DNA of 64,000 nt, from NCBI GenBank assembly GCA_965262005.1, contig OZ253492.1, forward strand, positions 207,321 to 271,320. Reading direction: 5' to 3'. Position numbers and translations under genes: made by a program. The notes under the pieces are model-generated. The model did not search any database. It saw only the letters and a list, made by a program, of their open reading frames with translations, and had not been told where the DNA came from. Below, one piece after another: positions 21,467 to 41,542 of this stretch. Every line of letters starts with the position of its first letter. Position 1 is the first letter of the stretch. The stretch comes from Phototrophicaceae bacterium (GTDB lineage Bacteria > Chloroflexota > Anaerolineae > Aggregatilineales > Phototrophicaceae).

Positions 21467-22373
21467 TCAATCCGAGCCATCCAGTACGCCGATGTAGGCT
21501 TGCGTTGTCTTGACATCAACATGCCCCAGGTTCTGCCGGATCACCTCGGTGGAAATGCCCGCCTTGAAGAGATTCCGGGCATAACTGCGGCGCAAATCAT
21601 GCGGCGTTACGGACCTCCGCTGCCTCCTGATGGCGCATATCACCGCGGCCTTGCCTCATTCGGATGAAGACCGGTCCCGACTCCCGTCCGTTCAGCCACA
21701 GCTCGGTAATCTGGCGCGCCCACAACATATCGCCAAAGGGCGCCATGCGCGCCTTGGCGCCCTTGCCAGCTTTCACGCGCAAAGCCGGTACGCCGCCATA
21801 GGTCTGATAAAGATCACTAATCTCCAGCTGGACGACTTCGCCCTCGCGCAGTCCGGTCGCCAGCAGCAGGACGATCATCGCCACATCGCGCCGGCCACGT
21901 AGCCGAGATAGATCGGGGCGCATCATCAGGGCCGCCCCTTGCGCCGGCGTCAAGCGAATATGCCGGCTGTCTGCTTCGTCCTGGACGCTGATGGTCGTCA
22001 CTTTTGAGTGCTGCGGATCAATGGCGCGCATCAGCCGCAGCTCAAGCTCGTCCGCCATAGCTTTAATAGTGGCGAAGTCCGCTGCGGCGTATTCCTGCTG
22101 CAGGTGATTCACCAGGGCGGCGCGTTGTTGTGGGTTCTCAACCAGCGCTTTGTAACTGCGGTGGATGCTGGACAGATGAACGCGGGCGCTGGCCGGCGCG
22201 AGTGTCTCCATGAGTAGATCGCGATAGCTCGTCAGGGCGGGCTGGTGCAGAACGCGTCCGGACTCAGCCAGCCAGCGATTATAGCGCTTGATCTGTGAGA
22301 CGACGTTTTTGTTGTCCGAATGGGGCGGAAGTTGCACCTGCGGAATGAGGTCTGGAAGTCGTGAATTTACCAT
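21467..22373 (-). pseudogene. tyrosine recombinase/integrase, frameshifted
   Basis: The N-terminal 258 aa lie in one frame (track 21597..22373). The catalytic C-terminus HDLRRSYARNLFKAGISTEVIRQNLGHVDVKTTQAYIG is in another frame (21467..about 21640). The shift lies near 21600-21650. Confidence 0.75.
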
Positions 22374-23180: not shown

Positions 23181-23836
23181 CGGTTACACCCCCACGCGGT
23201 ACACCCCCACGCCTGTGGGGAAAACGTCGTGAGACTCCGATTGACGACATGCTGGAGCGGTACACCCCCACGCCTGTGGGGAAAACCTGATCGGCGCGCA
23301 GGGCATCGGCAAATCGTACGGTACACCCCCACGCCTGTGGGGAAAACGACGGGCTTGTACACGCGGGAAGTAGCGGACGACGGTACACCCCCACGCCTGT
23401 GGGGAAAACAGTTGCATCGGGATCTTCGCAATCGCGCCCGACGGTACACCCCCACGCCTGTGGGGAAAACGGCGCGACCAAATGGAACGGATTGAAGGCA
23501 CGGGGTACACCCCCACGCCTGTGGGGAAAACAAGGGGACGATCCATAAGACAATGATACCCTACGGTACACCCCCACGCCTGTGGGGAAAACAATGCTAT
23601 AAGAGCGTCAAAACCATCAGTGCCCGGTACACCCCCACGCCTGTGGGGAAAACTCAATTCTGGAGGGCGATTATCGCTGTCTGTTCGGTACACCCCCACG
23701 CCTGTGGGGAAAACTACATTCCTTGGTGCGTCTATCGCTGGGAACGCGGTACACCCCCACGCCTGTGGGGAAAACTCAACGACCGTATCAGCCGTTGTCT
23801 TACGAGACGGTACACCCCCACGCCTGTGGGGAAAAC
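23181..23836 (-). CRISPR. type I-E CRISPR array: 11 repeats, 10 spacers, plus a degenerate terminal partial repeat
   Basis: 29-nt repeat GTTTTCCCCACAGGCGTGGGGGTGTACCG (minus strand) with stem CCCCAC/GTGGGG. Repeats start (plus coordinates) at 23197, 23258, 23319, 23381, 23442, 23503, 23564, 23625, 23686, 23747 and 23808. Spacers are 32-33 nt. A partial degenerate repeat lies at 23181-23196, distal to cas2. Confidence 0.97.
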
Positions 23837-23900: not shown

Positions 23901-24203
23901 TTAACGGTCCTCCACGTCCCCTCCGGCCGGCAACGGTCGCCTGACCAACTGCAGGCCATCGATGTCGACAATCTCCCGCCGCGTATTGCCAAACACGCGG
24001 ACCGCGAACCGTTGCTCGTTGTTGGTCGTCCACATCTGGATAACTCCTCCCTCACGGCAGGCAGCACACGCTCGTTCCCACAGGCGATCCCGCACCATCG
24101 CCGTCAAATGACCCAGAAACACCCCTGGATGTGGTTCGATCAGCCAGCGCGATAACTCCCCGCGTAAGCCGACAGGTACACTTTCCATGATCATCACGAC
24201 CAT
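23901..24203 (-). CDS. cas2: Cas2 (type I-E)
   Basis: 100 aa, last gene before the array, overlaps cas1 by 10 nt. ESVPVGLRGELSRWL... is typical of Cas2e. Confidence 0.9.
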   Translation of the reverse strand: MVVMIMESVPVGLRGELSRWLIEPHPGVFLGHLTAMVRDRLWERACAACREGGVIQMWTTNNEQRFAVRVFGNTRREIVDIDGLQLVRRPLPAGGDVEDR

Positions 24204-25117
24204 GCTTCGTCCTCCTCAAATAGCGCGTCCCAATCGATATCATCGATCAACGGACCTGGCAATGCGCCATCTTCATCATAATCCGGCTGCGGCTCTTCCT
24301 GCATTTCCAGTAGCGCGTCAATATCGGGCAAAAGACGCTGCAGCAGCTTCGCCTCTTTGAAGCCTTCACGACAACGGCGGCGAACATGCGCATCGATATC
24401 TGCCTTGCTGAGGGCGGCGGTCTCGAATGCTATGGGAATCGAAAGCTCAGTCTTGTACAGGTCGGCGATATCGTAGACAAACGACAATTGCTTGCCCGTA
24501 TGGATGAAACCTAGGCCCGGTGAATATCCCCCACTCACAATGGCAGCGTGACAGAGACCGTTCAGTAATGCGTTCGCCATCGACAGCGAACGATTTACTG
24601 GATCGGAGGCATCCCAGTCGTTGCGTGTGTAGCGCCTGCCTCGCCATTTCACGCCATAGCGTCGGCTCATGAGTTGATAGGTATTTCGGACGCGCACACC
24701 TTCGTGACCACGGATTTGTTCCAGGCTCAGGTCCGGATCCAGTACTTCATCAAAACGTTTGGTATACATCGCCAGCGCTACCTTGCGCCGCGTTTGCGGA
24801 TCGGACACCAAACTCGCCTGCTTCAACAAGCGGTATGCCTTGCGTGTTTCGCCCGTCCCCTGAGCGTAGAAGCGAGTAGAGTCCTCGCCGACCCAGACGA
24901 TAGAGCAGCCGTTTTGTGCCAGCAGTTTCACCGCTTCGTGGGTAATGCTGGTGCCTGGTCCCAGCAGCAAAAGCGAAAGCGAAGCAATCGGCACAGCGAC
25001 CTTGCCATTTTTGTCCACCAGTTCCACAGCATTGCGATAACGTTGGACGACAGCTCGTTCCACGTAGACATAACTGAGACTGTCGCGCAGTTTGGGCAGG
25101 ATGTGCAAATCTTGCAT
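24194..25117 (-). CDS. cas1: Cas1 (type I-E)
   Basis: 307 aa. Position and Cas1e-like sequence (SYVYVERAVV..., GLGFIHTGKQLSFVYDIADLYK). Confidence 0.92.
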   Translation of the reverse strand: MQDLHILPKLRDSLSYVYVERAVVQRYRNAVELVDKNGKVAVPIASLSLLLLGPGTSITHEAVKLLAQNGCSIVWVGEDSTRFYAQGTGETRKAYRLLKQASLVSDPQTRRKVALAMYTKRFDEVLDPDLSLEQIRGHEGVRVRNTYQLMSRRYGVKWRGRRYTRNDWDASDPVNRSLSMANALLNGLCHAAIVSGGYSPGLGFIHTGKQLSFVYDIADLYKTELSIPIAFETAALSKADIDAHVRRRCREGFKEAKLLQRLLPDIDALLEMQEEPQPDYDEDGALPGPLIDDIDWDALFEEDEAWS

Positions 25118-25199
25118 TTCACGCCTCCAATATTAGAGCGGTGGCAGTTCGAGTGTTTTTACTGCCTATACTTCCAAGCTTGACTGAAGCGATGAAACT

Positions 25200-25811
25200 T
25201 CAAGCCGGGTAAGGCACAGAAAGCAAACCACAGCCAAAAGCTTTTGCGCTGCCAATACCGTTTTGCAGCGACTCCACAAATGCCCCCGGCTCACTGACCT
25301 GCAGTACGCCCTCAAACTGCACCACATGCCAAGTCTGTTTGCGCCGCTTGCCGTGCAGCTTGCCTAGCTTTACGCTGCGCACATTCAGCGGTTTGACTGC
25401 GAAGCCGTGCGTTTCGCCTTTGCGCTGCAGCCATCCTGCCAACTCATCTTCGGCTAAGACGGCGTGTCGCTTGCCGGCGCGCTTGACCGTCGGATTGGCT
25501 TGCAGGCGGAATGGCAACCGCGATCCCTCGCTGACCTGTGGTTCCACCGTACGCACCTCAGGCAGTTTGCACAGATAACGCGGATCGCTCAGCCGTTCGG
25601 CTTTTTGCCAATCCGGAAGTTCTTGCGATTGCACTAGAATGGTGACGTATGGCTGTCGCCGCGCCTGCTCCACGCGGTAGAGGACACGCTCTTCCGGCGG
25701 CAATTGCTCGGTAAAAGCACATAGCAGCGTACGATGCAATTCATAACGGTCGCTGAGATCGCGCCGCGCTGGTCGATGTCGTAGGTTGATCAGCAGTTGC
25801 GAGAGAAACAC
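25200..25811 (-). CDS. cas6e: Cas6e (CasE) pre-crRNA endoribonuclease
   Basis: 203 aa. MFLSQLLINLRHRPARRDLSDRYELHRTL and the C-terminal GIGSAKAFGCGLL are typical of CasE. Confidence 0.9.
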   Translation of the reverse strand: MFLSQLLINLRHRPARRDLSDRYELHRTLLCAFTEQLPPEERVLYRVEQARRQPYVTILVQSQELPDWQKAERLSDPRYLCKLPEVRTVEPQVSEGSRLPFRLQANPTVKRAGKRHAVLAEDELAGWLQRKGETHGFAVKPLNVRSVKLGKLHGKRRKQTWHVVQFEGVLQVSEPGAFVESLQNGIGSAKAFGCGLLSVPYPA

Positions 25812-25813
25812 AC

Positions 25814-26476
25814 CTAAGCCTCCTCTTGATAGCCGGGATAAGCCACCGATTCTCGGCGCAGCCGTCGCGGGACGAAACGCCTGGGCTTGAACGAGACTGG
25901 CTGGTCATTTCGCACGACTGAGCCGTTCGCGTCATCTTCGATCAGCAACTGCAAGCGTTCGTCCACTCGCGCGTCGCCACCCAGGTAACGGTAATTGCGC
26001 AAGGCGCTCTCCAAGTCTTCGTCTCGCAACCCATCCGGCAGCCAGACTCGCTCACAGGGTAGAAATGCCTTGCGCCCGAAAAACAGAAACCAGCGCGGCT
26101 GCTCAAGCGCGGCTTGCAAGGTTTCGAGCAGGGTACGCTCCCCATCCAAACCCACCAGAAATTTAGCATCCGACAGATAGTAGCGGTCGGACAAGATAGC
26201 ATTCTTGCGCTCAATGCTGCCGCTGACTTTGTAGTAGCCATCTATGCCCGCGGTATGGAAATCACGCAATATCGTTCCCTGTTGATCAATGCGCACTCCC
26301 ATTTTCATCGCGCGCAAATCGACAATTGGCTCGTGACGTGGGCGCCCTAGCGCAGCGCAGAGCAAACCGACTATCCCGCTCTTTGATGGCTCGCGACCGG
26401 TATCACGATGGCTGAAGTGGCTCTGCGTCCCCCAGGATTGCAGGGGCGCGCTAATTCGCAAGAGTAGTGTCGCCAT
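25814..26476 (-). CDS. cas5e: Cas5e (CasD)
   Basis: MATLLLRISAPLQSWGTQSHFSHRDTGREPSKSGIVGLLCAALGR is the canonical CasD N-terminus. TAG stop 2 nt before the cas6e start. Confidence 0.9.
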   Translation of the reverse strand: MATLLLRISAPLQSWGTQSHFSHRDTGREPSKSGIVGLLCAALGRPRHEPIVDLRAMKMGVRIDQQGTILRDFHTAGIDGYYKVSGSIERKNAILSDRYYLSDAKFLVGLDGERTLLETLQAALEQPRWFLFFGRKAFLPCERVWLPDGLRDEDLESALRNYRYLGGDARVDERLQLLIEDDANGSVVRNDQPVSFKPRRFVPRRLRRESVAYPGYQEEA

Positions 26477-26479
26477 GAG

Positions 26480-27589
26480 TTACACTCCGTTCAACGAAGC
26501 AGTCATGACGCCGATCCATTCGCCCAGGTTTGCTACCGTCGCGTCCGCCAATTCCTCCGAGGCCAGCTCATATCCGCGCGGATTCAGTGCCGCGATACTT
26601 GGATTGCCAAGGCGGTAAGCCCCTTCAACCTGATCCCAGTATTCGCTGAGCGCCTTTATCGATGGCTCGGCATAACCACTGTCACGCTTGCTGCGCACTG
26701 CCCTTTCAAAGGCATTGGCCAGCGATTGACCGTCGTTGTCCGGTCGCGCAACAGCCAGCAGGAAGTCCGGCGCATGCTGATTGACGAAGGAGTTCTTCAT
26801 GCCAGAAGGCACGACGAGCGCGAATGCCTTCATGAATGCGCCGACTGTTTGCCGGGCAAGGTCCGCCTCGCCGCCGAGGTTCATGGCGAGTTGCTCCCAA
26901 TCGATGCGGACGCAGCGGTAGTAGGTGGCGGAGTTAAAGGGGACCAAGCCGAGCATACCGGCGCCGCTAGTATCTTCCGGCGTGAAGTCGTCCACGGCGG
27001 TGAAATAGTCGAACTCCGCTGTGTTGACTTCATGTGTTGATATCGCATGCGCCACTTGGCTAGCGGCGTCGATATTGAGTGCCGGCTTCTCCGCCAGCAT
27101 GCGTCCGAATAGCGCAATGTCCGGCGCTGAAGTGCGGTTGGCCAACTGCTTGACCAAGCCCTTGCCGAACTGCTTGATATCCGGCGTCGTACCAGCTTCA
27201 TGAGCATCGCTAAGGCATTGCGCGATCGCTTCAATCTCGTCATCGCTGATGTAAAGCAGGACGCTTGTTTCTTGCTCCGATCTGCGGTCCATCTTGGCAT
27301 AGAGATCACCGGCGATTGCCACCGCCTGCTCTTCTACCCAGGCGCGATCAATGTCGTCCTTCTCCATTCTGTCCGCGATATGTTTCACCAGCTTTTTTGT
27401 CCTCGTACCGGTTGGCACGGCGACTGCGCTTTTGAAAACATTGGACACACGCATGGCGCGCTTGGCCGATTGTGAAGATATCCGCGCACGCCGGACGCCG
27501 CCAAAGAGTGCCTCCTTGGGGTTGCCGGTGTCATCACGATTGAGGTTCGATGGCGCGAAGCTCTGAATGGCATGCAATTCGATAATCAT
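26480..27589 (-). CDS. cas7e: Cas7e (CasC) Cascade backbone
   Basis: IELHAIQSFAPSNLNRDDTGNPKEALFGGVRRARISSQSAKRAMR matches the CasC N-terminal signature. Confidence 0.92.
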   Translation of the reverse strand: MIIELHAIQSFAPSNLNRDDTGNPKEALFGGVRRARISSQSAKRAMRVSNVFKSAVAVPTGTRTKKLVKHIADRMEKDDIDRAWVEEQAVAIAGDLYAKMDRRSEQETSVLLYISDDEIEAIAQCLSDAHEAGTTPDIKQFGKGLVKQLANRTSAPDIALFGRMLAEKPALNIDAASQVAHAISTHEVNTAEFDYFTAVDDFTPEDTSGAGMLGLVPFNSATYYRCVRIDWEQLAMNLGGEADLARQTVGAFMKAFALVVPSGMKNSFVNQHAPDFLLAVARPDNDGQSLANAFERAVRSKRDSGYAEPSIKALSEYWDQVEGAYRLGNPSIAALNPRGYELASEELADATVANLGEWIGVMTASLNGV

Positions 27590-27606
27590 CGGTCGGATTT
27601 CCTTTC

Positions 27607-28104
27607 TTATGCTGATTTGGATTCGGATTGATTGGCTCGCCAGAAGGCGTCAGCCCAATGACGCTGCACGAAGCGCTTGGGATGATCCCAATTGCGCAGG
27701 TCGGCCATGAGCTGATGCCAGTTGATGGCGATATCCTTGGCTTTCAAGATGCTGATTTGCTGTCGCAGGCGCGGCTCCAGCGTCTCCCGCCGCATACGCA
27801 GCAGCTGTACAAAACGGCGTTCGGTCGCCTCCGCGCTGCCTTCATCGGCAGCCAGCCGCCGCAGATGATCGCCGATGTTGCCGGACGATATCGAGGACGG
27901 GTGCAAGGCGAAGAGCGAGGCGATCATGTAAATGTCCGCTTCGTTCCAATCGTGCACGAAAGGGACGACGTAGGGGAACATTGCCGGTTCTTCGCCCGGC
28001 TGCGCGCCCAGCCCACGCCGCAATGCCGCCAGCATGGCGCGGTCTTCGGCGCGCGCCTGCAGGTAGGTGACGAAGGGATCTTCCTTCGTTTCAAAGGTAC
28101 TCAT
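27607..28104 (-). CDS. cse2: Cse2 (CasB/Cas11e) small subunit
   Basis: 165 aa, helical, located between cse1 and cas7e. Confidence 0.85.
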   Translation of the reverse strand: MSTFETKEDPFVTYLQARAEDRAMLAALRRGLGAQPGEEPAMFPYVVPFVHDWNEADIYMIASLFALHPSSISSGNIGDHLRRLAADEGSAEATERRFVQLLRMRRETLEPRLRQQISILKAKDIAINWHQLMADLRNWDHPKRFVQRHWADAFWRANQSESKSA

Positions 28105-28113
28105 GCATACCTC

Positions 28114-29646
28114 CTATTCATTGAGTAGTTCATTCAATTGTCGGCGTAAGTAGCGCTCCGCGTTGATACCCCCTTTCAGTGCCCAGGGACTGTCGCCGGC
28201 CAGATTTGCCGCGTACTGCCAAGCGCCCAGTGCTTCGCGTCGCAGCGTCGCCGCCCATTCACCCATCGCCGTATCACTATCGTCAACCAGCGTCTCGATG
28301 AAGCGCCAGAAAAGCGGCTCCAGCGCGATCCAGTAGCGCTCGCGGGCGCGCCATTGTTTGACCAGTTTGTTGCGATCATTGTTATCCGGTTTGCCATCGG
28401 CCCCGCGCTTTAGCACATACTCCGCCAGCATATTTAAAGCATTACGCAACTTGACTGCGCAGTCCTCAGCTTGTTCGAGCGCTTGCCTGACATCGCTGAC
28501 ATGTTGCTCATTGCGCAGCATACCTAATGGCAAGGGCGTGAGTTCCTGGCGATGAAATATTGTTTTCGCCTTGACCGCCATTAAACCGCTTGCCATTAGT
28601 TGGAGCCGCTTGTTCTCCGGCAAAAATCCCCACTCAAGCAGTCTCGACCACCACCTAATAACCTTGGGCAACTGGTCGTCATCGTTTTGCGGCAACATGC
28701 CATGATAATCACGCCACAGCGCCCTATTGGAATCAAAGCGCAGGATGACAAATTCATCTTCCTTGTCCTTTTGCTTTCGTCGCAAATAACAATTCTGCGG
28801 ACAATAAACTCGATCATGTAACTTCCCGACGGGCGCAATCCTTGTCTCTTTGACTCTTAGTCCATTTCGCGTCTCCAACGGAATCAGCAGGACATGATTT
28901 GTTTGCCAAGTCAGGTAGTCTAGGTAACCAGCAGGCGAGAGCTTGAGCATCTCCTTTCCGACGTTGCGCCCGCCCACTGGATCTTCACGTTCCCATGCCG
29001 GCATGTCACGTGCCGTCGATCGCATCACGCTATCGTGAGGATAGCGAAGGAGATTCAATGCAAGTGTTTCAAACAGATTGTCTCCGCGGGCAAAGAATAC
29101 GACGCCGCGAGACCATATGCTGTCCGCATGATTTGGTGTCTCTTTGCCGCTCTTCCCGCCACCGAGTCGAAAAGCCTGCGCTTGCAGCAATATCCTCGCC
29201 GCCTTTGCCGGGTAAAGCGGTTGGACGTTGTCCGCCGTTTGATGGGTAAAATGGACGCTGTGATTTTGCATTGTCTGGGCAAGATGGCTATAGATGGCGG
29301 CAGTCTTAACACGATCATCAACTACCTGATAAAACGGCCGCATCGGATGAAATAGGTCAAAGCGGTCGTACCACTCGGCAAAATAGCCGTCCAAAGATTT
29401 CATGTCGAATTCGCCTGCTCGCCGCAGCTCACTCCATTCCCGCGCGCTTGCCGGACCGAAGTTCCGATGCAAAATTGCTAGCAGCAATGGCATGATCGCC
29501 GCTGATTGAATCGGCGTCTCGCAAGAGATTTCCCGTATTTCCTGCGTGTTGGCGAACAAGCCACGCAAACTGAAGTCTTTCAATCCGCCCGCGCCTGTAA
29601 TGCAGGGTATCCACTTCTCATCAATGAGGTTAAATGTGACGTTCAC
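28114..29646 (-). CDS. cse1: Cse1 (CasA/Cas8e) large subunit
   Basis: MNVTFNLIDEKWIPC... is the canonical CasA start. 510 aa. The GTG start overlaps the cas3 TGA (GTGA). TAG stop. Confidence 0.9.
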   Translation of the reverse strand: MNVTFNLIDEKWIPCITGAGGLKDFSLRGLFANTQEIREISCETPIQSAAIMPLLLAILHRNFGPASAREWSELRRAGEFDMKSLDGYFAEWYDRFDLFHPMRPFYQVVDDRVKTAAIYSHLAQTMQNHSVHFTHQTADNVQPLYPAKAARILLQAQAFRLGGGKSGKETPNHADSIWSRGVVFFARGDNLFETLALNLLRYPHDSVMRSTARDMPAWEREDPVGGRNVGKEMLKLSPAGYLDYLTWQTNHVLLIPLETRNGLRVKETRIAPVGKLHDRVYCPQNCYLRRKQKDKEDEFVILRFDSNRALWRDYHGMLPQNDDDQLPKVIRWWSRLLEWGFLPENKRLQLMASGLMAVKAKTIFHRQELTPLPLGMLRNEQHVSDVRQALEQAEDCAVKLRNALNMLAEYVLKRGADGKPDNNDRNKLVKQWRARERYWIALEPLFWRFIETLVDDSDTAMGEWAATLRREALGAWQYAANLAGDSPWALKGGINAERYLRRQLNELLNE

Positions 29647-32561
29647 GCGTCCTCCTCTAGAAAGATTTCTAAACCGTATTCTCTCGTCAATCGCAGCGCG
29701 TATTTGCTTTCTGGAACATTGAAGAGCCCATCATCGAATGTCACGACGCGAGCAAATTTCAACTGAGCTTTACTTTTCCACTTTTCGTGTTCACGCAATC
29801 GTTCCAGTCCGTCTTTAACTTCCGCTCTGCGAACAGTCACCTTGTATCTAAGCAACTCGTCAATGTCTTCTTTGCTGGGTACGCGATTGAGTCGACTTTC
29901 CATTTCCCGATTTACGATACATATGATATCCACGCCGGGCTTTATGTCTCGCGTCGAGACATGGTTTTCCAAGTTGTCTTTCAGCCTAAACGAGTTGGAG
30001 TCAATCATTTCTTCGTCCCCCGGCTCGCCAATGACATACTGCGCGCCCCGGAACGTACTGTTCGCAGATCCTAGCTCCATCTTCCCATACGCAGCGCGCA
30101 GCTCCTCGGCGAACTCCAAATGCTCGCAATCCTCGCTGTACACAAAATCCATCACCGCATCAATGTCATCCGGCGTACTCAGCGCGCTCATGTCGCGCAA
30201 TTTTAGCCAGGTCTTCAGCAGGAAAAAGCGCTCGTAAATCACTTCATCAACGCCGAAGCACGGCAGCCCATCATCATTTAGTTCAGGTTCTCGCCAGAGC
30301 AATGTCGGCTTTGTCATATGCAGCGGACGCGCCCCGCGCTGATGCCGCTGTAAACGACCGACACGCTGAATCAGCAGGTCGATCGGCGCCGTTCGGCTGA
30401 TCATCAGGTCAAAGTCGAGGTCAAGGCTCTGCTCGATGATTTGCGTGGCGACCAGAATCGCGCGCTGCGGGCGGTCGCCGTCCTTTCCAAATGCCTCTAG
30501 CACCTCGTTTTCTATGTCGCCGCGCCAAGCGGGAGGATAGCGCGCATGAAACAGCCAAATCACGTCCGCAAGTTCTTCATCACCGCGCAGATGCCGAGCA
30601 ACTTCAATCGACTCGTCAACCGTGTTGCAGACGATGGCGATGCAGCCGCCCGCGGCAGAACGTGTCTTTACCTCGTGTAACAGGCTGTCGAGATCGGCCG
30701 GAATCGCTTCGATATGAACAGTCCGCGTTTCGGGCGGTGGCAAGCGATGCGTCCGTACACTGCCATCCTGCTCCACCACTGTCAGGCGTGGGTAAGGCGT
30801 ATTCAGCGCATTCTCAGAGTCGGTTGCGCCGACGGCTTCCAAGAGCGCTTGGCGATTCTGCCGCGCCAAAGTAGCTGAGAGGAGGATCATTGGCGTCTCC
30901 AGAGTGTGCAGCCAGCTCAACAGGCGCTCGATAATGACATTCATATAGCTGTCGTAACTGTGAATCTCATCAAAGATGACGACTTTGTGGCTCAGCCCGA
31001 ACTGGCGGACGAAGTGATGCCGCGCCTGCAAGACGCTCAACATTGCTTGATCGATGCTACCGACACCGTGGGGCGCCAGTAGCGCGCGCTTGCGGTTCCG
31101 GAACCAGTCCTCCGCAGTGACGCCGCTTTCGTCGCCTTCGCGCTGCGGTCGTTCCTGTATTTGCTGATAGAGTGGTTGCTGATCCGCCTGTCCATGTACC
31201 AGGTGAAGGTTGACGTTTTCGCGTGGGTAGCGCTTCTCCAGGTACTCAACAAAGCGGCCAAACATCTGATTGCTCGTTGCTTGCGTCGGCATGGCGATGT
31301 AGCTGCCGCCCAAGCCGAAGCGGTTGATCAGCATATCAGCGATGTGCAGTGCTAGCTCAGTCTTGCCGCCACCGGTTGGGTACTCGACAAGAACAAGGCG
31401 CGGCGCCTGCCGCAGAGGGCTTAACGCTTCGATGCCCTCGCGTTGCAATTCATTAGGCGCGAACGGGAAGACGCTTTCAAACTCGGCTTCACGGCTGTCT
31501 GGCTTCCAGCCCAGAAATCCGAATCCGCTTAAAGCTTTCAATGCATACTTACGGACGCGCTCCAGATACTCGTGCAGGTCGATGGGGCGCTCTTCGAACG
31601 GAAAATATGTGCTGTCGGAACCAATCCAGTCACAGACTGAAACGAAGCCCGATAGAAAAGCGGCATAGACATTGAAGTCATTGGCAGTCGATGGCAAAGC
31701 GATTTCCGGCACGTCCAAAAGGCCTTTCAGCTCGCAAAGGATCGCGTCTTGGAGTTCCCGCCAGCGCTCTTTGCCGGCCGATGCTTGATCCATTTCGGTG
31801 CTGGTAATCCAATCGCCGTGATGACCGCCGATGACTGCTGCTAATTGACTTGCCTGCATCTTGTTCAGATCTTTTTCCGCCAGCCAGCGAGACAAGATGA
31901 CCGCCGATAGGATGCCATGAGATGTGTCTTTGGAGCGTTCGCGCAGGCGCACGTCCATGTCGCAGAGCGCGTCATACAGATCGAGCGCTTTTTTCTGAAA
32001 GGCCGGCGTCGCCTTGCCGATGTCGTGGGTGGCCGCCAGCAGCGCCATTTGTTGTCGCGCCGCTTCTTGCTCCAAGCCGAGCGTCTTCGCCAACCAGGCT
32101 TTCTGCCCGTCTCCCAGCACCTGCTCCCACATGCAGCAAGCCACCGCCGCCACGTCCAAGAGATGGTAGATCAGCAAATGATAAGTGGTGGTTTCAGCTT
32201 TAGGTTTGCGCTTCGGTTCGCGCTTCGCCCATAGGCGATATACGAGTGACTGATTGTCAGCGCCGGTCTCGAGTCCAAGACCGTACTGCTGCGCTTGACG
32301 CATCACACTGCGCATCAAGCGCAGACGCAGTTCCGGCGGCTCTTCGACCACCACGCCCGAACCCCAACTGCGTATCCAAGGCGCCATCTCCTGAGGCGCT
32401 GACACCTTGACGCTGTAGACAACATAGCCATCGACATCTTTGTGAATGAACTGAGTAGGATGCCAGATGCTTTCAAGCAGGCGATCATAGTGCCGCGGCT
32501 CGAAGCGCAGCACTACGGACACAGGATCGCCCTCGCTGCTCCACACCCCAGGACCGTCCAA
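29643..32561 (-). CDS. cas3: Cas3 HD nuclease/helicase with an in-frame N-terminal WCX-like (WYL-regulator C-terminal) extension
   Basis: HD domain (YHLLIYHLLDVAAVA, HDIGK), Walker A PTGGGKT, DEAH-like VIFDEIH. Residues 1-95 resemble a WYL-protein WCX module. Possible internal ATG starts at 32315 and 32303. Confidence 0.9.
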   Translation of the reverse strand: MDGPGVWSSEGDPVSVVLRFEPRHYDRLLESIWHPTQFIHKDVDGYVVYSVKVSAPQEMAPWIRSWGSGVVVEEPPELRLRLMRSVMRQAQQYGLGLETGADNQSLVYRLWAKREPKRKPKAETTTYHLLIYHLLDVAAVACCMWEQVLGDGQKAWLAKTLGLEQEAARQQMALLAATHDIGKATPAFQKKALDLYDALCDMDVRLRERSKDTSHGILSAVILSRWLAEKDLNKMQASQLAAVIGGHHGDWITSTEMDQASAGKERWRELQDAILCELKGLLDVPEIALPSTANDFNVYAAFLSGFVSVCDWIGSDSTYFPFEERPIDLHEYLERVRKYALKALSGFGFLGWKPDSREAEFESVFPFAPNELQREGIEALSPLRQAPRLVLVEYPTGGGKTELALHIADMLINRFGLGGSYIAMPTQATSNQMFGRFVEYLEKRYPRENVNLHLVHGQADQQPLYQQIQERPQREGDESGVTAEDWFRNRKRALLAPHGVGSIDQAMLSVLQARHHFVRQFGLSHKVVIFDEIHSYDSYMNVIIERLLSWLHTLETPMILLSATLARQNRQALLEAVGATDSENALNTPYPRLTVVEQDGSVRTHRLPPPETRTVHIEAIPADLDSLLHEVKTRSAAGGCIAIVCNTVDESIEVARHLRGDEELADVIWLFHARYPPAWRGDIENEVLEAFGKDGDRPQRAILVATQIIEQSLDLDFDLMISRTAPIDLLIQRVGRLQRHQRGARPLHMTKPTLLWREPELNDDGLPCFGVDEVIYERFFLLKTWLKLRDMSALSTPDDIDAVMDFVYSEDCEHLEFAEELRAAYGKMELGSANSTFRGAQYVIGEPGDEEMIDSNSFRLKDNLENHVSTRDIKPGVDIICIVNREMESRLNRVPSKEDIDELLRYKVTVRRAEVKDGLERLREHEKWKSKAQLKFARVVTFDDGLFNVPESKYALRLTREYGLEIFLEEDA

Positions 32562-33231
32562 AACCTGATTGGAAGCGTACTATATCGGCGATATCGAATC
32601 GCTCGTCAGTGATCTGAATATCTTGAATGCGGTCGAGTTTCAGACTAAGGCTGATGTACACCTCTCCATCGCGGCTGCCATCGCAGAGCACATAGAAGCC
32701 ATCCGACAGGGGATTGCTGACGAAGCGATAGGGGCGAATGCGCCAGCGCGATGGAGCGGCGCGGTTAGGCGGAAGATAGCCCACCCAGACTTCTCGCCGG
32801 CGTCTCTTGGCTTGAACGAGGGTAGTGAAGATGCGCGCCCCTTCTACATTGTCTTGCCCGGAGCGAAGTCGATCCTGTAGCTCACCCGCCAGATGCGGAT
32901 GAAGCTTGATCGCCAGTTTGTTGATGAGGGAACGGACGATCCGGGATTGCGTCGTGTGGGTGGTCAGCGCCCTTTCCAGAGCGAGGAAGAGGAACTCCCC
33001 TTCTTCGCTAGTGAGCTTGAGTTCGACAAAGTAGCTCTCATCAAGGAAATAGCGCTGCCCTTCGAGATAGATGGGGACACCCATGTCTTCAATTAGACGG
33101 ATGTATTTGTGGGCGGTGCTTGCGCCAATATGATATTTCGTGACGATTTCGCCGCGGCTTATACCGTATGGCGAATTTGCCAAGTCCTGAATGATGTCGA
33201 AAATGATGTTGACCGTTTCGCGTAATGCCAT
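32485..33231 (-). CDS. HTH-WYL transcriptional regulator (YafY-like), truncated by a frameshift
   Basis: N-terminal wHTH (ISRGEIVTKYHIGASTAHKYIRLIEDMG) and WYL domain (WRIRPYRFVSNPLSDGFYVLCDGSRDGEVYISLSLKLDRIQDI). The last ~25 residues are out of frame, and the expected continuation lies in the cas3 frame. Confidence 0.8.
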   Translation of the reverse strand: MALRETVNIIFDIIQDLANSPYGISRGEIVTKYHIGASTAHKYIRLIEDMGVPIYLEGQRYFLDESYFVELKLTSEEGEFLFLALERALTTHTTQSRIVRSLINKLAIKLHPHLAGELQDRLRSGQDNVEGARIFTTLVQAKRRRREVWVGYLPPNRAAPSRWRIRPYRFVSNPLSDGFYVLCDGSRDGEVYISLSLKLDRIQDIQITDERFDIADIVRFQSGFGRSWGVEQRGRSCVRSAALRAAAL

Positions 33232-33818
33232 CAGCAGCTTCCTTCTCTAGGCACATCGTAACTGTATCGACGCGCGAACGCGCCTTCTGATGCGCACTTT
33301 CATTCGACACCATGCCCTCTCCTTTGGATTTGGACGGCGCCCAAAAATACGTTCTTCTATAAAGTGGCTGAATCTCTATTGCTCACTCGGCTAAAGGCAT
33401 CGACTCCGAACCGTTCTAAGTTCCGGCGTGGGCATTATCCTCTAGCCCCTTCGAGACGGCACTCTCTTTTTTGCCTAAAAGCCGCAGAAATTCGGGAAAA
33501 TCAGGACACATGTCCGAATGCTGGTTATGGTGTTTATCTTCGGTGGCAGCGTTGCGCAGAATCCGCTTTAGATTCCAATTGTCCGGGTCGCGGCGCTCAA
33601 GGAACGCCAGCGCCGCGCGCCAGTCGTTCTTCTTGATTGCCGCCGAGCGAATGGACTTCACCATGTCGATGCGGAGATTGGCCCCCGCTTTCTGCACCTC
33701 TTTGTATAACGTGAAGTAAAGTTCCCGCTTTTCCTCGTGGCGGCGAAGGTGAACTTGCCCCGATTTTGTAGACAGCGCTGTTGTCCAATAGAATCAGGTA
33801 AGGAAGGCAGGTAGGAGT

Positions 33819-34109
33819 GTGATGGTGAAGTATCCAGACGAGTTGAAGCGTGAGGCGCTGAATTTAGCGGCGAAGCCCGGTAGGACGGTGGCCCAGGTGG
33901 AGCGCGACTTGGGCATTACGCCGGGACTGATCTACAAGTGGCGGCAGCGGTATCGGGTCGATGAGAATAGCGATGAGCTTAAGCCAAGCGCCGAACGAGA
34001 ATCCGAGACCGAGATTCGACGCTTGCAAGGCGAGTTGGCGATCGCACGGGAGGAGCGCGACATTTTAAAAAAAGCTATCCAAGTGTTCTCGCAGGAAAGC
34101 AAATGGTGA
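33819..34109 (+). CDS. IS3 transposase OrfA
   Basis: Protein identical to 3044..3334. A7 slippery run at 34067-34073. Confidence 0.88.
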   Translation: MMVKYPDELKREALNLAAKPGRTVAQVERDLGITPGLIYKWRQRYRVDENSDELKPSAERESETEIRRLQGELAIAREERDILKKAIQVFSQESKW

Positions 34110-34960
34110 AGTACCAATTCATTCTGGAGCATCGGCAGGAGTTCAGCGTGTCGAGGATGTGCCGCGTGTTGGATGTGAGCAAGAGTGGCTTCTTCGCCTG
34201 GTTGAAGCGCGGGAAGAGCCGGCGCGAGCGGGAGGATGCGAGGCTGCTAGCGCGCATCCGGGAAATCTTCGTGGGTAGCGCCCGGACTTATGGCAGTCCG
34301 CGTGTCTGGGCGGAATTGTTGGCGAGAGGCTGGCGGGTAAGCCGTAAGCGGGTAGCGCATTTGATGCGGCTTGCCGGCATGTACGCGATTCGCAAACAAG
34401 GCTATCGAGGCCGGAAGAAATCGGCAGCGTCGACATCGGCGGCGCCCAATATCCTGCAGCAAGATTTCTCGGCCACGGACATCAACCAGAAGTGGCTGGC
34501 GGACATCGCCTACATTGCCACCAAAGAAGGCTGGCTCCATCTCGCTGTGGTCATGGACGCCTTCTCGCGCCGGATTGTCGGCTGGTCTATGAACCGGAGA
34601 GCCAACAGCCAGCTGGCGCAAAATGCACTGCTCATGGCAGTGCAGCAGCGTGAATTGCGCGGTCTGCTAATCCATCATAGCGACCGTGGCAGTCAGTACA
34701 CAGACCAGCGTTACCAGCAGTTGCTGACTGACCGTGGCATACAGCCAAGCATGAGCGACACCGGCAGTTGCTACGACAACGCCATGGCGGAAAGTTTCTT
34801 CGCTACTCTGAAGACCGAGTGCGCGAATCACGTCTTTGACACCATCAACGACGCACGGCGCACTATCGCATACTACATAGAGGCATGGTACAACCGCCGC
34901 AGACTGCATTCATCGCTGGGCTTTGCCAGCCCTATGCAATTCGAAGAGGCAGAGCATTAG
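34103..34960 (+). CDS. IS3 transposase OrfB
   Basis: Protein identical to 3328..4185. Confidence 0.88.
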   Translation: MVKYQFILEHRQEFSVSRMCRVLDVSKSGFFAWLKRGKSRREREDARLLARIREIFVGSARTYGSPRVWAELLARGWRVSRKRVAHLMRLAGMYAIRKQGYRGRKKSAASTSAAPNILQQDFSATDINQKWLADIAYIATKEGWLHLAVVMDAFSRRIVGWSMNRRANSQLAQNALLMAVQQRELRGLLIHHSDRGSQYTDQRYQQLLTDRGIQPSMSDTGSCYDNAMAESFFATLKTECANHVFDTINDARRTIAYYIEAWYNRRRLHSSLGFASPMQFEEAEH

Positions 34961-35446
34961 ACAAATTCAGCGTCCACCAAAACGGGTCAAGACCAAGGCG
35001 CCTGTCGTACTTGCGACGGGATTCGCCCTCTCTGCGAGTTGGCTGCTCAGGGATATCGGGATGCTCAAAGTTGCCCTCGACGAGCGCTCTACCGATTTGC
35101 ATCCAGCGGTAGTACGTTGAGCTTGGAACCTGGGACAGGTGAAGGCATTCTGATAGTGGCAAGCCCGATTTGATGTGCTTCGCTAGCAACGTGATCTTGG
35201 CTCGCTTGAGCGTTAACTTCCGCATCTTCTTCTCCGTAGTCAACTATGACCGGCTGCACACTGTTTGCAGCGGAATCGGCAAAAAATGATACACGCGTAT
35301 TGTAGCCTGCTAGCATTATATATGAGGAAAGCCTTTTCAAATAGCATTGGGCAGTTTTGCCTCGTGCTTCGCTTTTCGGCTCTAGCAAGTACAGTGTTGG
35401 CTCGCACCGTGCATAGCTCATAGCGTTCTGCGGGCGGTATACCCAT

Positions 35447-36117: not shown

Positions 36118-36336
36118 TCATGCTTCGGCTTCAATGACAAAGCTGAGAAGTTTACCAGGCAGCTAGAAAAGGGCGATCTCCCCAGAGATGTCGTGTAGAG
36201 AGTCGGCACCGCTGTCTTCAAATTGCAGGTGCGAAACCCAGCTGTGCGAGGGTGGGCACCCAAGGGCTACCTCATCATCGGGACCCTCGACCAACAGCAG
36301 GCGATCACGACTCTCATCGATCTTGATATTCTTCAC
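36118..36336 (-). pseudogene. TOPRIM-like (LLVEGxDD motif) remnant with an in-frame amber codon
   Basis: GTG 36336 overlaps the ATPase TGA (GTGA). VKNIKIDESRDRLLLVEGPDDEVALG... TAG at 36163-36165, then 14 more codons to TGA 36118-36120. Far shorter than OLD/DUF4435/DUF3226-type partners. Confidence 0.45.
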
Positions 36337-37102
36337 CCGCGAACCTCATAGCTGACTCTGGTAACCGCATCCATGCCAAACTCATTGTATGTCACTGCTT
36401 CGATGTTGCCAGTTTGCAGGTTTCGCTCCAAGCGGTGGAAACGGAATTCGTAAGAATCATCGTCCTTGAAGGCTTCGTGGGCTGCCTCGATCATTTCCCA
36501 GCTGTGTGTCGTGGCGAAGACTTGCACGTTGTGCTCGCGCGCGGCTTCGCCGATATCATTCCATACATTCTGTTGAACTGAGTAGTGGATGCCATTCTCT
36601 ATTTCATCGATGAAAAGGTACTCCGGTTTATCACCTCGCATCACCATCAGGATGCTGGCGAAGCGAATTGAACCTTCGCCAAGCAGATGCAAAGGCATCA
36701 GGACGCCGTCGACCTCTACCCAAATCCTCCGCCGACCGTCAGGTGACAAGACTTCCACATCTGTTAGACTCGGTTCAAGCTTCTTCAACGCATCGTCTAT
36801 GGCGATGTGTTGGCCTTCAACTTTAAGCATGCTGTACTTGTCAGTCAGTTCCTCACTGTCTGGTGTGCCCCGTACCGGGGAAAACTGGGACTTCTCCTTT
36901 CTGGCTTTGAGGCGTGTTCCCCGCAAATAGTTATCGGAGTTGGCGGAGTCCCTTCCTCGCTCGCGTACACGCGCGCGAGGAAGGCGCTGTAGCCCTTGCC
37001 AGCTCTGACGTCTTTCCACTGACAGATAATCAGTACAAATTGTCTGTATGTGAGATTAGATGCGCAGGTGCGTGAATAGATCTCGATAGTGGTCCCGTTC
37101 AC
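36333..37102 (-). pseudogene. AAA_21/ABC-type ATPase (AriA/OLD-ATPase-like), frameshifted near the P-loop
   Basis: The C-terminal frame has LLGEGSIRFASIL, Walker B YLFIDEIENGIHYS and the TTHS motif. The N-terminus (GTG 37102, MNGTTIEIYSR...VLII.Q..DVRAGKGYSAFLARV) is in another frame. The switch lies near 36960-36990. Confidence 0.6.
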
Positions 37103-40340: not shown

Positions 40341-40802
40341 CTATCGTAACCATATCAGCGTACCGACAAGGTGCAGAAATCCGAGATAAGATGTATCGAG
40401 TTTCTCAAATCGGGAAAAGACGCGGCGGAAATGTTTGATCTTATTGATGAAACATTCCACCAGATGCCGCTCGCGATAGAGCCATCTATCATATTCTCGC
40501 TGCTCTTTGGCGCTCGGATGCGGGGGAATTACCGCTTCTATGCCTCTTTCAAGCAAGCTGTCCACAAAATCTTGGGACGCATAGCCTCGATCCGCGATAA
40601 CCCGCTGAAAGGCAAAGCCTTCCACCAACTCCTCAGCCTGATTGATGTCGTGAGCCTGCCCAGGACTCAAGCGGAAACGCAAGGGATTGCCCAAACCATC
40701 AACCGTGATATGAATCTTGCTACTAAAACCCCCGCGACTGCGACCCACGGCTTGCTTTTCACTTTTTTTCGGCGCCAGCGGCACAGGGATGTGCCCGAAC
40801 AA
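40341..40802 (-). CDS. IS5-family transposase OrfB (DDE)
   Basis: [29 protein letters not shown]...VIADRGYAS...[26 protein letters not shown], a DDE_Tnp_1 signature. Confidence 0.85.
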
Positions 40803-41143: not shown

Positions 41144-41542
41144 CTAGCCGAATGGCACCGCATTCAGTTGTTTGCGAGCCACGATGATGGGCGCCGGCAC
41201 ATTCTGACGCGGCATTGAGACGTGCGGATTCGCCGGCGGGGATTTGATTATTTGCTTCTCGTCCTAGAGGGTTTCGTGCCGGGCCGGTGGCTGTAAGATC
41301 ACCGCCCAGCTTTCTTCGGGGATGTGTATGGTCACATCATACTGCTGATAAGCCCCGTCCACCTCTACACTCATTCTCTTCGCGCAGAACTCACGTGCCT
41401 GGCCCAAGGAATCTTGACACCCGATCTAAAATGGATGTGCCGAAATTGGCGCTTTTTCACCTGCTGCATGGTGGAATTGGCGCTTATTTTCGGACGACAA
41501 TATAATGTACGTAAATAGATCTTTTCGGACTTTATAGACCAT
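41144..41542 (-). pseudogene. unknown coding remnant with two internal amber codons
   Basis: 133-codon frame from ATG 41542 with no TGA or TAA. TAG at 41426-41428 and 41264-41266, and terminal TAG at 41144-41146 in the same CTAG used by the convergent HAD-like gene. No family recognised. Confidence 0.3.

What the first reader, a model, noticed from the sequence alone, without database searches (positions are those of the whole stretch)
29643..33231. WYL regulator and Cas3 share one reading frame: a frameshifted HTH-WYL-WCX-Cas3 fusion
Seen in sequence: the 972-codon cas3 ORF does not start with Cas3 sequence. Its first ~95 residues are VVLRFEPRHYDRLLESIWHPTQFIHKDVDGYVVYSVKVSAPQEMAPWIRSWGSGVVVEEPPELRLRLMRSV. 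This has the pattern of the C-terminal (WCX) module of YafY/PafBC-type WYL regulators: WHP.Q, a central D-G, W...G..V.V.EP..LR. Cas3 proper (LWAKREPKRK..YHLLIYHLLDVAAVA, HDIGK, PTGGGKT, FDEIH) follows with no intervening stop. The upstream ORF 32485..33231 is HTH plus WYL but has no WCX and ends in about 25 out-of-frame residues. The two frames overlap by 77 nt, and the sensible reading switches within about 10 nt around a C4 run (32546-32549): ...VRFQSGFG in one frame, then VWSSEGDPVSVVLRF in the other. Removing one nucleotide there gives a single 1195-aa ORF, HTH-WYL-WCX-Cas3. Inference: the locus either encodes (or recently encoded) a ligand-sensing regulator covalently fused to the type I-E effector nuclease-helicase, or the regulator lost its stop codon. 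Cas3 could still initiate internally at ATG 32315 or 32303. I cannot say from memory whether this architecture has been described.
Basis: partly seen in the sequence, partly recalled or inferred. Interest (0 to 1): 0.72.

Follow-up and report, generated by a model that had tools for sequence, protein, structure and literature searches.

The report
Broken WYL-regulator–Cas3 fusion gene
The CRISPR nuclease gene cas3 here belongs to a widespread but unstudied variant that carries a complete DNA-damage-sensing regulator at its front end. In this bacterium a real 2-base deletion has split it in two, so this copy is a recently damaged member of a known kind, not a new system.

Summary
On the minus strand, a 248-aa HTH+WYL ORF (33231..32485) overlaps a 972-codon ORF (32561..29643) by 77 nt. 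The second ORF begins with a Pfam WCX domain (E 6e-14) and continues as a type I-E Cas3.

Twelve species-level relatives (Chloroflexota: Anaerolineae, Phototrophicaceae), several of them on short-read contigs, encode one uninterrupted 1189–1216-aa HTH-WYL-WCX-Cas3 protein. The fusion is therefore ancestral.

The lesion is not in the C4 run. One GT unit of GTGTGT was lost (relatives TGGGGTGTGTGGAGC, window TGGGGTGTGGAGC, at 32541–32545). Re-inserting TG gives a 1196-aa ORF with the conserved junction GRSWGVWSS.

The same deletion is present in an independent assembly from another sample. That contig has 0 indels against the window over 22.9 kb, so the deletion is real and not an assembly error.

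The conserved upstream element of the gene has also been displaced, by a phage terS-like gene that was later split by an IS3-family element. The other seven cas genes and the 10-spacer array are intact.

WYL–Cas3 fusions were noted in one sentence in 2014 (PMC4012209). Here the family proves large (51 of the 150 closest WCX clusters) and I-E-specific. It has not been characterised.

Verdict: a recently inactivated or split member of a known kind. Interest is moderate.

The parts
32485..33231 (-). 5' fragment of the broken fusion gene. It encodes the wHTH (aa 1-65), linker helices and the WYL domain (aa 134-208, with the SRWRIRP motif at 161-167). It is in frame up to V230, followed by 18 out-of-frame residues and a TGA stop at 32487-32485.
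   Evidence: The exact 248-aa product is on record from 2 contigs.
32541..32545 (-). Lesion site. The minus strand reads GGGG-TGTGG here, where L022 and L002 read GGGG-TGTGTGG. One GT/TG unit of (GT)3 has been lost, so the downstream reading frame is +1 relative to the upstream frame. The site falls in the WYL-WCX linker, which the model predicts to be disordered.
   Evidence: first gap in the alignment with L022; AF2 pLDDT is below 50 for residues 214-234.
29643..32561 (-). 3' fragment ORF (972 codons from TTG 32561). It comprises the WCX domain (about 32525-32307), a flexible linker, the Cas3 HD domain (about 32231-31602), the SF2 helicase (about 31445-30336) and the C-terminal domain. All HD and helicase motifs are intact: HDIGK, GGHHG, PTGGGKT, FDEIH, SAT, QRVGRLQR.
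   Evidence: The fold matches I-E Cas3 structures 4q2c and 4qqw.
32520..32522 (-). GTG codon, the best-placed candidate restart for a WCX-Cas3 product of 959 aa. GAGGG lies 8 nt upstream, and the codon sits 37 nt before the stop of the upstream ORF. The public annotation (P0006) uses this start. Whether it is used in the cell is not shown.
33232..33276 (-). Retained remnant of the native 5' region (a -10-like TACAGT/TACGAT box and an AAGGAAG ribosome-binding site). Similarity to L022 and the other relatives ends at about 33276.
33277..35444 (-). A 2.17-kb segment that occupies the place of about 291 nt in L022. That 291-nt stretch includes the conserved upstream block (TTCTTAAGCAAATnGTTCACGCTCCGCGCG) found in relatives. 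The segment carries a terminase-small-subunit-like gene (35243..34996 plus 33749..33416) interrupted by the IS.
33750..34995 (+). IS3-family insertion sequence of 1246 bp (OrfA 33819-34109, OrfB 34103-34960), with a 3-bp target-site duplication AGG. An identical second copy lies at 2975-4220 (duplication GTT).
23901..29646 (-). The rest of the type I-E operon, all full length: cse1 (29646-28114), cse2 (28104-27607), cas7 (27589-26480), cas5 (26476-25814), cas6e (25811-25200), cas1 (25117-24194), cas2 (24203-23901).
   Evidence: Pfam on the identical genes in L021; colinear full-length tblastn matches to 9 loci with intact fusions.
23197..23836 (-). CRISPR array: 11 identical 29-nt repeats (GTTTTCCCCACAGGCGTGGGGGTGTACCG) and 10 spacers of 32-33 nt.

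Best explanation
SHOWN. The window carries a type I-E CRISPR-Cas locus of a Chloroflexota bacterium (Anaerolineae/Phototrophicaceae-like).
- Its cas3 belongs to a conserved family in which a complete wHTH-linker-WYL-WCX transcription-factor module, of the DriD/PafBC/CapW kind, is fused through a flexible linker of about 25 aa to the N-terminus of Cas3.
- In this clone the gene is broken by a genuine 2-nt slipped-strand deletion, (GT)3 to (GT)2, in the disordered linker between WYL and WCX.
- The two pieces are a 248-aa HTH-WYL fragment and a 5'-truncated WCX-Cas3 ORF.
- The gene's conserved upstream element has also been displaced, by a phage terS-like gene that an IS3-family element later split.
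- Neither half has any further lesion, and the other cas genes and the array are intact.

INFERRED. The damage is recent. The full-length fusion protein is no longer made, so interference by this locus is probably lost or weakened. Independent disruptions of the same gene in four other lineages suggest that it is lost repeatedly.

INFERRED mechanism of the intact protein. The module probably dimerises, binds a site at the gene's own promoter through the wHTH, and senses single-stranded DNA through the WYL domain, whose RW[R/L][I/V]R motif is conserved. Levels of Cas3 and Cascade, and/or release of Cas3, would then be coupled to a DNA-damage or infection signal.
For: - Domains: Pfam WYL and WCX above their cut-offs, plus Cas3_HD, DEAD and Cas3-like_C_2; NCBIfam cas3_core and cas3_HD.
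- Fold: the body matches I-E Cas3 4q2c/4q2d (TM 0.78 normalised to the target) and T. fusca Cas3; residues 1 to about 340 match full-length DriD 8tp8 (E 8e-11) and PafBC. Sequence-profile hits to DriD and PafBC chains agree.
- Intact orthologues: 12 ORFs of 1189-1216 aa, including short-read SPAdes/megahit contigs.
- Size of the wider family: 51 of the best 150 WCX cluster representatives carry a Cas3 body. Eight of eight sampled have HTH+WYL+WCX+Cas3. A distant member heads a full I-E operon.
- Purifying selection on the module: N-module identity is at least equal to Cas3-body identity in 12 of 12 comparisons. WYL and WCX are the most conserved segments. W163 and R166 of the RWxxR motif are invariant. 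The motif's role in contacting ssDNA comes from PMC11662680.
- Lesion: the DNA alignment shows loss of GT.
- The lesion is real: L021, from a different ENA sample at 3x coverage, is identical over 22,904 nt except for 14 clustered substitutions. It has 0 indels and the same deletion and IS.
- Upstream displacement.
- Other cas genes intact. Catalytic motifs intact.
- Recurrent decay: L005, L009, L022 and L016. L016 has a 329-residue in-frame deletion and an N-terminal truncation.
Against: - No read-level data were available. A systematic base-calling error at this GT repeat in both samples cannot be formally excluded.
- All disrupted copies come from long-read metagenome assemblies. All six complete short-read copies are intact.
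- L021 is the same clone as the window, so it shows reproducibility, not evolutionary persistence.
- Loss of function is inferred. A WCX-Cas3 product could still start at GTG 32522, and the downstream cas genes may have their own promoter.
- The autoregulation and ssDNA-sensing mechanism rests on homology only. No palindromic operator was found in the conserved upstream block. The AF2 confidence for the N-module is only moderate (pLDDT 45-84).
Confidence: 0.8

Rival explanations
1. Assembly or base-calling artefact. The organism has an intact 1196-aa fusion gene, and the 2-nt gap exists only in the consensus sequence.
For: The source is a long-read metagenome assembly (metaMDBG-style contig names). 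Every disrupted copy found is from such assemblies, and the complete short-read copies are intact. L022, a 4x contig, shows many split cas genes.
Against: The identical deletion appears in an independent assembly from another sample at only 3x coverage, with zero indels elsewhere in 22.9 kb. The lesion is a dinucleotide unit, not a homopolymer length change. All other cas genes and the long ORFs in the window are unbroken. The gene also carries a second, structural lesion in its upstream region that cannot be a base-calling error.
Confidence: 0.1
2. Functional split. The deletion converted the fusion into two working proteins: a free HTH-WYL regulator, and a WCX-Cas3 translated by coupled re-initiation at GTG 32522. 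CRISPR interference persists.
For: The break lies in a linker predicted to be disordered. GTG 32522 has a GAGGG 8 nt upstream and sits 37 nt before the upstream stop. No second lesion has accumulated in 3.6 kb, and all catalytic motifs are intact. HTH-WYL proteins without WCX are a recognised class, about 15% of WYL proteins (PMC6789036).
Against: None of about 60 related genes is split at this site. [quoted passage not shown] The fragment ends in 18 out-of-frame residues. The native upstream element has been displaced. The clone shows no spacer turnover between samples, though this is weak evidence.
Confidence: 0.12
3. Programmed recoding. A +1/-2 ribosomal frameshift or transcriptional slippage at GGGGUGUGG restores the fusion at a regulated level.
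For: Only that the two frames overlap and a single shift restores the full protein. The neighbouring IS3 element shows the genome does use programmed frameshifting in another context.
Against: No relative has the shift: 15 loci read straight through this site with varied codons. There is therefore no conserved slippery site or stimulator. (GU)2 is not a known slippery motif (my own knowledge).
Confidence: 0.02
4. Two ancestrally separate genes (a WYL regulator, then cas3) that merely look fused because the regulator recently lost its stop codon in this lineage.
For: WYL regulators are often encoded next to defence loci, including CRISPR-Cas (PMC9122601; PMC4012209).
Against: The fusion is conserved from 50% to 83% identity across 12 species and in dozens of more distant clusters. 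The nearest unfused I-E loci have no adjacent WYL gene. WCX lies in the cas3 frame, not in the regulator's frame.
Confidence: 0.01

Closest known systems
WYL-Cas3 fusions noted by Makarova, Anantharaman, Grishin, Koonin & Aravind 2014 (PMC4012209)
   Same: A WYL domain fused to the HD plus SF2-helicase Cas3 of a type I system. That paper also proposed that the WYL domain senses ligands.
   Different: The paper gives one sentence and no subtype, organism or detail, and the stored part of its supplement did not contain the entries. This work adds several points. The fused part is a complete wHTH-WYL-WCX transcription factor at the N-terminus. The family is I-E-specific wherever its context was seen. 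It is large. The window's copy is a frameshifted member.
Free-standing wHTH-WYL-WCX transcription factors: DriD, PafBC, CapW, BrxR
   Same: The same three-domain order and fold. The RW[x][V/I]R motif that contacts ssDNA in CapW/BrxR is conserved. Like CapW, BrxR and Sll7009, the module is associated with a defence system.
   Different: Here the module is covalently attached to an effector nuclease-helicase instead of being a separate protein of about 320 aa. No palindromic operator was detected. Dimerisation, DNA binding and ssDNA sensing are untested.
Type I-E Cas3 (T. fusca 4qqw, Thermobaculum terrenum 4q2c, E. coli YgcB)
   Same: HD nuclease, two RecA-like domains and a C-terminal domain, with all catalytic motifs. 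It is the first gene of a cse1-cse2-cas7-cas5-cas6e-cas1-cas2 operon with 29-nt repeats.
   Different: It has an N-terminal extension of about 335 aa. It scores below the curated cut-off of the enterobacterial I-E equivalog model PRK09694 (414.7 versus 569 bits). In this window it is split by a frameshift.
WYL-containing PIF1 helicase of Thermotoga elfii (Andis et al. 2018; bioRxiv 10.1101/163188)
   Same: A WYL domain is fused to a DNA helicase. In that protein it is an accessory ssDNA-binding module that couples ATPase activity to unwinding.
   Different: PIF1 is an SF1 helicase and carries only the WYL domain at its C-terminus. It has no wHTH or WCX and no link to CRISPR.
Other natural Cas3 fusions (Cas2-Cas3 in type I-F; Cse1-Cas3 in some Streptomyces I-E loci; my own knowledge)
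   Same: They set a precedent for Cas3 acquiring extra modules that tie it to other steps of the pathway.
   Different: Those partners are Cas proteins (adaptation or Cascade subunits), not a ligand-sensing transcription factor.

Membership tests
Type I-E Cas3 | HD nuclease domain with its metal-binding His/Asp motifs | tested here: met
   Pfam Cas3_HD 158.6 bits; TIGR01596 91.3 bits against a 43.45 cut-off; HDIGK, GGHHG and related motifs present.
Type I-E Cas3 | SF2 DExH helicase core (Walker A, DExH, SAT, motif VI) plus a Cas3 C-terminal domain | tested here: met
   TIGR01587 cas3_core 209 bits against a 102 cut-off. PTGGGKT, FDEIH, SAT and QRVGRLQR are present. Cas3_C is weak in the window (E 0.07) but clear in relatives. 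Fold TM 0.78 to 4q2c.
Type I-E Cas3 | Encoded with Cse1/Cse2 Cascade genes and I-E-type repeats | tested here: met
   Cse1, Cse2, Cas7 (CT1975), Cas5, Cas6e, Cas1 and Cas2 identified by Pfam on the identical L021 genes; 29-nt repeats.
Type I-E Cas3 | Scores above the curated equivalog cut-off (NCBIfam PRK09694) | tested here: not met
   414.7 bits against a cut-off of 569. It is a divergent I-E Cas3, so the subtype is assigned from the operon context.
wHTH-WYL-WCX transcription factors (DriD/PafBC/CapW/BrxR class A) | N-terminal winged HTH | tested here: inconclusive
   HTH_11 scores 22.7 bits in the window, below the 25-bit cut-off. It is above the cut-off in orthologues (35.5 and 38.6 bits). 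The model shows three helices plus a β-hairpin, and the fold aligns with full-length DriD.
wHTH-WYL-WCX transcription factors (DriD/PafBC/CapW/BrxR class A) | WYL (Sm-like β-barrel) domain with the conserved basic ligand-binding motif | tested here: met
   Pfam WYL 27.0 bits against a 21.8 cut-off. The SRW[R/L][I/V]RP motif has invariant W163 and R166, and corresponds to RWHVR in CapW (PMC11662680).
wHTH-WYL-WCX transcription factors (DriD/PafBC/CapW/BrxR class A) | C-terminal WCX (ferredoxin-like βαββαβ plus helix) domain | tested here: met
   Pfam WCX 52.5 bits against a 23.9 cut-off. The predicted secondary structure E238-244, H246-251, E262-265, E271-277, H280-288, E294-298, H300-316 matches the description in PMC6789036.
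wHTH-WYL-WCX transcription factors (DriD/PafBC/CapW/BrxR class A) | Dimeric, sequence-specific promoter binding modulated by ssDNA | not testable with these tools
   Only indirect evidence is available. A conserved asymmetric block of about 30 nt lies upstream of the fusion genes, and no dyad was found in it.
Intact HTH-WYL-WCX-Cas3 fusion family | A single uninterrupted ORF of about 1190-1270 aa | tested here: not met
   The window has 248-aa and 972-codon ORFs in different frames. Relatives have 1189-1216 aa.
Programmed frameshift gene | The shift and a slippery site are conserved among orthologues | tested here: not met
   All 15 other loci read through the site in a single frame.

The most novel reading that the evidence does not exclude
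The intact family is a self-contained sensor-effector. In this reading, a dimeric ssDNA-sensing transcription factor fused to Cas3 holds Cas3 at the promoter of its own cas operon. It releases, and so de-represses, when single-stranded DNA appears, whether from phage replication, DNA damage or Cas3's own degradation products. That would create a feedback loop that couples the expression and availability of type I-E interference to an infection signal. The window's clone would then be a natural split allele that separates the sensor from the effector.
Probability: 0.3. Interest if true: 0.65.

Novelty: new member of a known kind. Interest (0 to 1): 0.38.

Why it matters
How type I CRISPR systems keep the destructive Cas3 nuclease-helicase in check is only partly understood. 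Here a whole DriD/CapW-type ssDNA-sensing regulator is built into Cas3 itself. This happens in a sizeable family: about a third of the closest WCX clusters, all I-E where the context was seen. It points to a direct, testable link between DNA-damage or infection sensing and CRISPR interference. To my knowledge, and within the searched library, that link has never been studied experimentally.

The particular copy in this window adds little beyond that. It is a recently broken allele in a mobile-element-rich neighbourhood, an example of the common decay of cas3. For annotation, public records currently call the two halves a 'WYL' protein and a 'Cas3'. They also start the Cas3 inside the WCX domain, which hides the architecture.

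Tried and rejected
- Window-wide frameshift census. A greedy ORF map flagged fragmented stretches at 9.7-13.2 kb and 35-39 kb. Their translations look like non-coding sequence, toxin-antitoxin genes or mobile-element remnants, not split housekeeping genes. The comparison with L021 gave a better test of accuracy.\n- Exact look-ups of P0006 and of the 248-aa product returned 'not on record'. P0058 worked instead.\n- Origin by read-through from a neighbouring regulator. Three of the nearest unfused I-E loci have no WYL gene upstream, so this is not supported.\n- Operator search. No dyad symmetry is shared across loci in the conserved upstream block.\n- The supplement of the 2014 paper. It was redone with database proteins.\n- Self-targeting as a reason for cas3 loss. 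No spacer matches elsewhere in the 64-kb window with up to 5 mismatches. The rest of the genome could not be checked.\n- A diversity-generating retroelement as the cause of the 130-nt hypervariable patch. They are not conserved and have no Shine-Dalgarno sequence.
Full report
**1. The observation**

On the minus strand there are two ORFs. One is a 248-aa ATG ORF (33231..32485) and the other a 972-codon TTG ORF (32561..29643). They overlap by 77 nt in different frames. Deleting any one nucleotide between 32485 and 32582 gives a single 1195-aa ORF.

Pfam places these domains:
- HTH_11 at residues 11-60 of the upstream ORF (22.7 bits, just under the cut-off).
- WYL at residues 134-207 (27 bits, above the cut-off).
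- WCX (PF25583) at residues 13-85 of the cas3 ORF (52.5 bits against 23.9, E 6.4e-14).
- Cas3_HD, DEAD and Cas3-like_C_2 in the remainder.

NCBIfam cas3_core and cas3_HD are above their cut-offs. The enterobacterial I-E equivalog PRK09694 is not (414.7 against 569 bits).

**2. The fusion is the ancestral state**

A word-indexed search with the repaired N-terminal 575 aa found proteins that cover 100% of HTH through HD at 49-77% identity. At the junction they read ...GRSWGVWSS..VVLRFEPRHYDRLLES.

A scan of one genome per species returned 20 loci, all from Chloroflexota MAGs labelled Anaerolineae, Phototrophicaceae or Aggregatilineales (lineage). In 12 of them the ORF that starts at the HTH runs uninterrupted for 1189-1216 aa to the Cas3 C-terminus. 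These include SPAdes and megahit short-read contigs.

Across these sequences the N-module is at least as conserved as the Cas3 body in every pairwise comparison. WYL and WCX are the best-conserved segments.

**3. The family is large**

A full HMMER scan of 1.84 billion cluster representatives with the window's WCX segment gave 1181 hits. Among the best 150:
- 51 carry a Cas3 body.
- 32 are 1046-1273 aa long, with WCX at about residues 229-336, the same position as in the window's fusion.
- 52 are free-standing proteins of about 320 aa.

All eight sampled long members are HTH+WYL+WCX+Cas3_HD+helicase. A distant member on a short-read contig heads a complete Cse1-Cse2-Cas7-Cas5-Cas6e-Cas1-Cas2 operon. 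The nearest unfused I-E cas3 genes have no WYL gene upstream.

**4. The lesion**

A DNA alignment of the junction shows TGGGGTGTGTGGAGCAGC in L022 (the closest relative intact at this site) and in L002. The window reads TGGGGTGTGGAGCAGC (first gap).

Re-inserting TG gives a 1196-aa ORF with the conserved junction. In the AF2 model the site lies in the WYL-WCX linker, where confidence is low (residues 214-234, pLDDT below 50).

**5. Is the deletion real?**

The exact 248-aa product is on record from two contigs, and an identical Cas3 ORF (P0058) sits on a separate 28.9-kb contig from ENA sample ERZ25068833, named ctg51617_3x_l. That contig matches the window over 22,904 nt with 14 mismatches and 0 gaps. 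It includes the same deletion and the same IS.

All 14 mismatches lie in one 130-nt patch. This is therefore the same clone sequenced in another sample. It is independent read evidence, not an independent lineage.

A low-coverage contig with no indel anywhere else argues that the data are accurate and the deletion is genuine. I could not inspect reads, and I leave about 10% for a systematic artefact.

**6. A second lesion**

Relatives share a conserved asymmetric block (consensus TTCTTAAGCAAATnGTTCACGCTCCGCGCG), followed about 17 nt later by a -10-like TAnnAT box, just upstream of the fusion gene.

In the window and L021, similarity to L022 stops about 45 nt before the ATG, at about 33276. L022 has 291 nt at this position, whereas the window has 2.17 kb. 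The inserted segment encodes a terminase-small-subunit-like protein (phrog_4102, E 2.9e-14). Its ORF is restored when the 1246-bp IS3-family element and one copy of its AGG target-site duplication are removed.

The native -35/regulatory element is therefore no longer next to the gene.

**7. State of the rest of the system**

The other parts of the locus look functional:
- cse1, cse2, cas7, cas5, cas6e, cas1 and cas2 are full length and colinear with nine loci that carry intact fusions.
- The array has 11 identical repeats and 10 spacers.
- All HD and SF2 motifs of the Cas3 part are present.

The damage is therefore recent.

Other lineages carry independent lesions in the same gene:
- L005 and L009 have one frameshift each.
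- L022 has two.
- L016 has an N-terminal truncation plus a 329-residue in-frame deletion.

This suggests recurrent loss. Some of the single frameshifts in long-read MAGs could still be sequencing errors.

**8. What the intact protein probably does (inference)**

By fold, residues 1 to about 340 align with full-length DriD bound to ssDNA and DNA (8tp8) and with PafBC. The body aligns with I-E Cas3 structures (profile hits).

In CapW/BrxR, ssDNA is contacted by the arginines of an RWHVR motif and its 3' end docks on WCX. ssDNA binding rotates the wHTH domains of a domain-swapped dimer off the operator (PMC11662680). The fusion family keeps S-R-W-[R/L]-[I/V]-R-P, with W163 and R166 invariant.

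All three domains are retained, including a conserved wHTH, and the gene is always first in the operon behind a conserved upstream block. I therefore favour a transcription-coupled, ssDNA-responsive control of Cas3/Cascade. The alternative is a purely accessory ssDNA-binding role, as in the WYL domain of T. elfii PIF1, where only the WYL domain is fused. No palindromic operator was detected, so the mode of DNA recognition remains open.

**9. Consequence in this clone (inference)**

The full-length protein cannot be made without recoding. No relative supports programmed frameshifting.

A WCX-Cas3 product could initiate at GTG 32522, which has a GAGGG 8 nt upstream and is the start used in the public annotation.

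I rate the outcomes as follows: inactivated or strongly impaired most likely, a functional split about 12%, an artefact about 10%.

**10. Novelty**

Makarova et al. [quoted passage not shown] Later WYL papers that I could search do not treat it.

The window's gene is a new, broken member of a known kind. The added value here is fourfold:
- the exact lesion and evidence that it is real;
- the second, upstream lesion;
- the finding that the fused part is a complete wHTH-WYL-WCX factor;
- the size and I-E specificity of the family.

Noticed in passing
window 41317-41445 (ORF 41248..41502, + strand): All 14 differences between the window and the otherwise identical 22.9-kb contig L021 are substitutions packed into 130 nt. 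They change about 9 residues of a small open frame next to an IS5-like transposase (about 40341-41091, minus strand). There is no second copy or template repeat in the window. The cause could be mis-assembly of paralogous IS ends, a recombination patch or targeted hypermutation; this is unresolved.
   Followed up: partly
window 2975-4220 and 33750-34995: Two 100%-identical copies of a 1246-bp IS3-family element (OrfA HTH_Tnp_1, OrfB rve, overlapping as in a typical programmed -1 frameshift). Their 3-bp target-site duplications are GTT and AGG, which indicates recent transposition.
   Followed up: yes
window 35243..34996 + 33749..33416 (minus strand): A phage terminase-small-subunit-like gene (phrog_4102) sits directly upstream of cas3 and is split by the IS. 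Removing the IS and one duplication copy restores an ORF of about 190 aa.
   Followed up: yes
upstream of the fusion genes in L001-L015 and L022 (e.g. L004:9920-9975): A conserved asymmetric block of about 30 nt (TTCTTAAGCAAATnGTTCACGCTCCGCGCG) plus a -10-like box. It persists across loci whose intergenic DNA is otherwise unrelated, and it is a candidate promoter or regulator site of the fusion gene. It is missing from the window.
   Followed up: partly
L022 (ENA ERZ25068966 ctg549089_4x_l), whole cas operon: In this close relative (about 87% identity) cas3, cse1, cas7, cas5 and cas1 are all split into pieces. It is either a heavily decayed I-E locus or a low-coverage consensus with errors.
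   Followed up: partly
L016 (OZ220735.1), 10001-12277: The fusion gene lacks its first ~127 residues and has an in-frame deletion of residues ~515-843 (most of the helicase core). This is a clear natural loss-of-function allele.
   Followed up: partly
P0039 (746 aa, Anaerolineales): A related HTH_11 + WCX module is fused to Fe-S cluster and CCG (heterodisulfide-reductase-like) domains. This is another example of the regulator module attached to an enzyme.
   Followed up: no
window 14584-20951 (+ strand): A series of large ORFs rich in Pro/Thr repeats with fn3 domains. Their reading frames overlap by 150-500 nt and they contain internal repeats of 73-82% identity. They could be cell-surface proteins. 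The long overlaps could reflect compositional bias or frameshifts.
   Followed up: no
window 21597-22373 (minus strand) and 36333-37019 (minus strand): A Phage_integrase-like gene lies just beyond the CRISPR array. An N-terminally truncated AAA_21/AAA_15 ATPase lies upstream of the locus. The I-E system sits in a neighbourhood rich in mobile elements and defence-island features.
   Followed up: no
window 23746-23654 (spacers 2 and 3 of the array): Two adjacent spacers are about 75% similar to each other (both contain ...CAGCGATA..CGC...). They may have been acquired from related protospacers.
   Followed up: no
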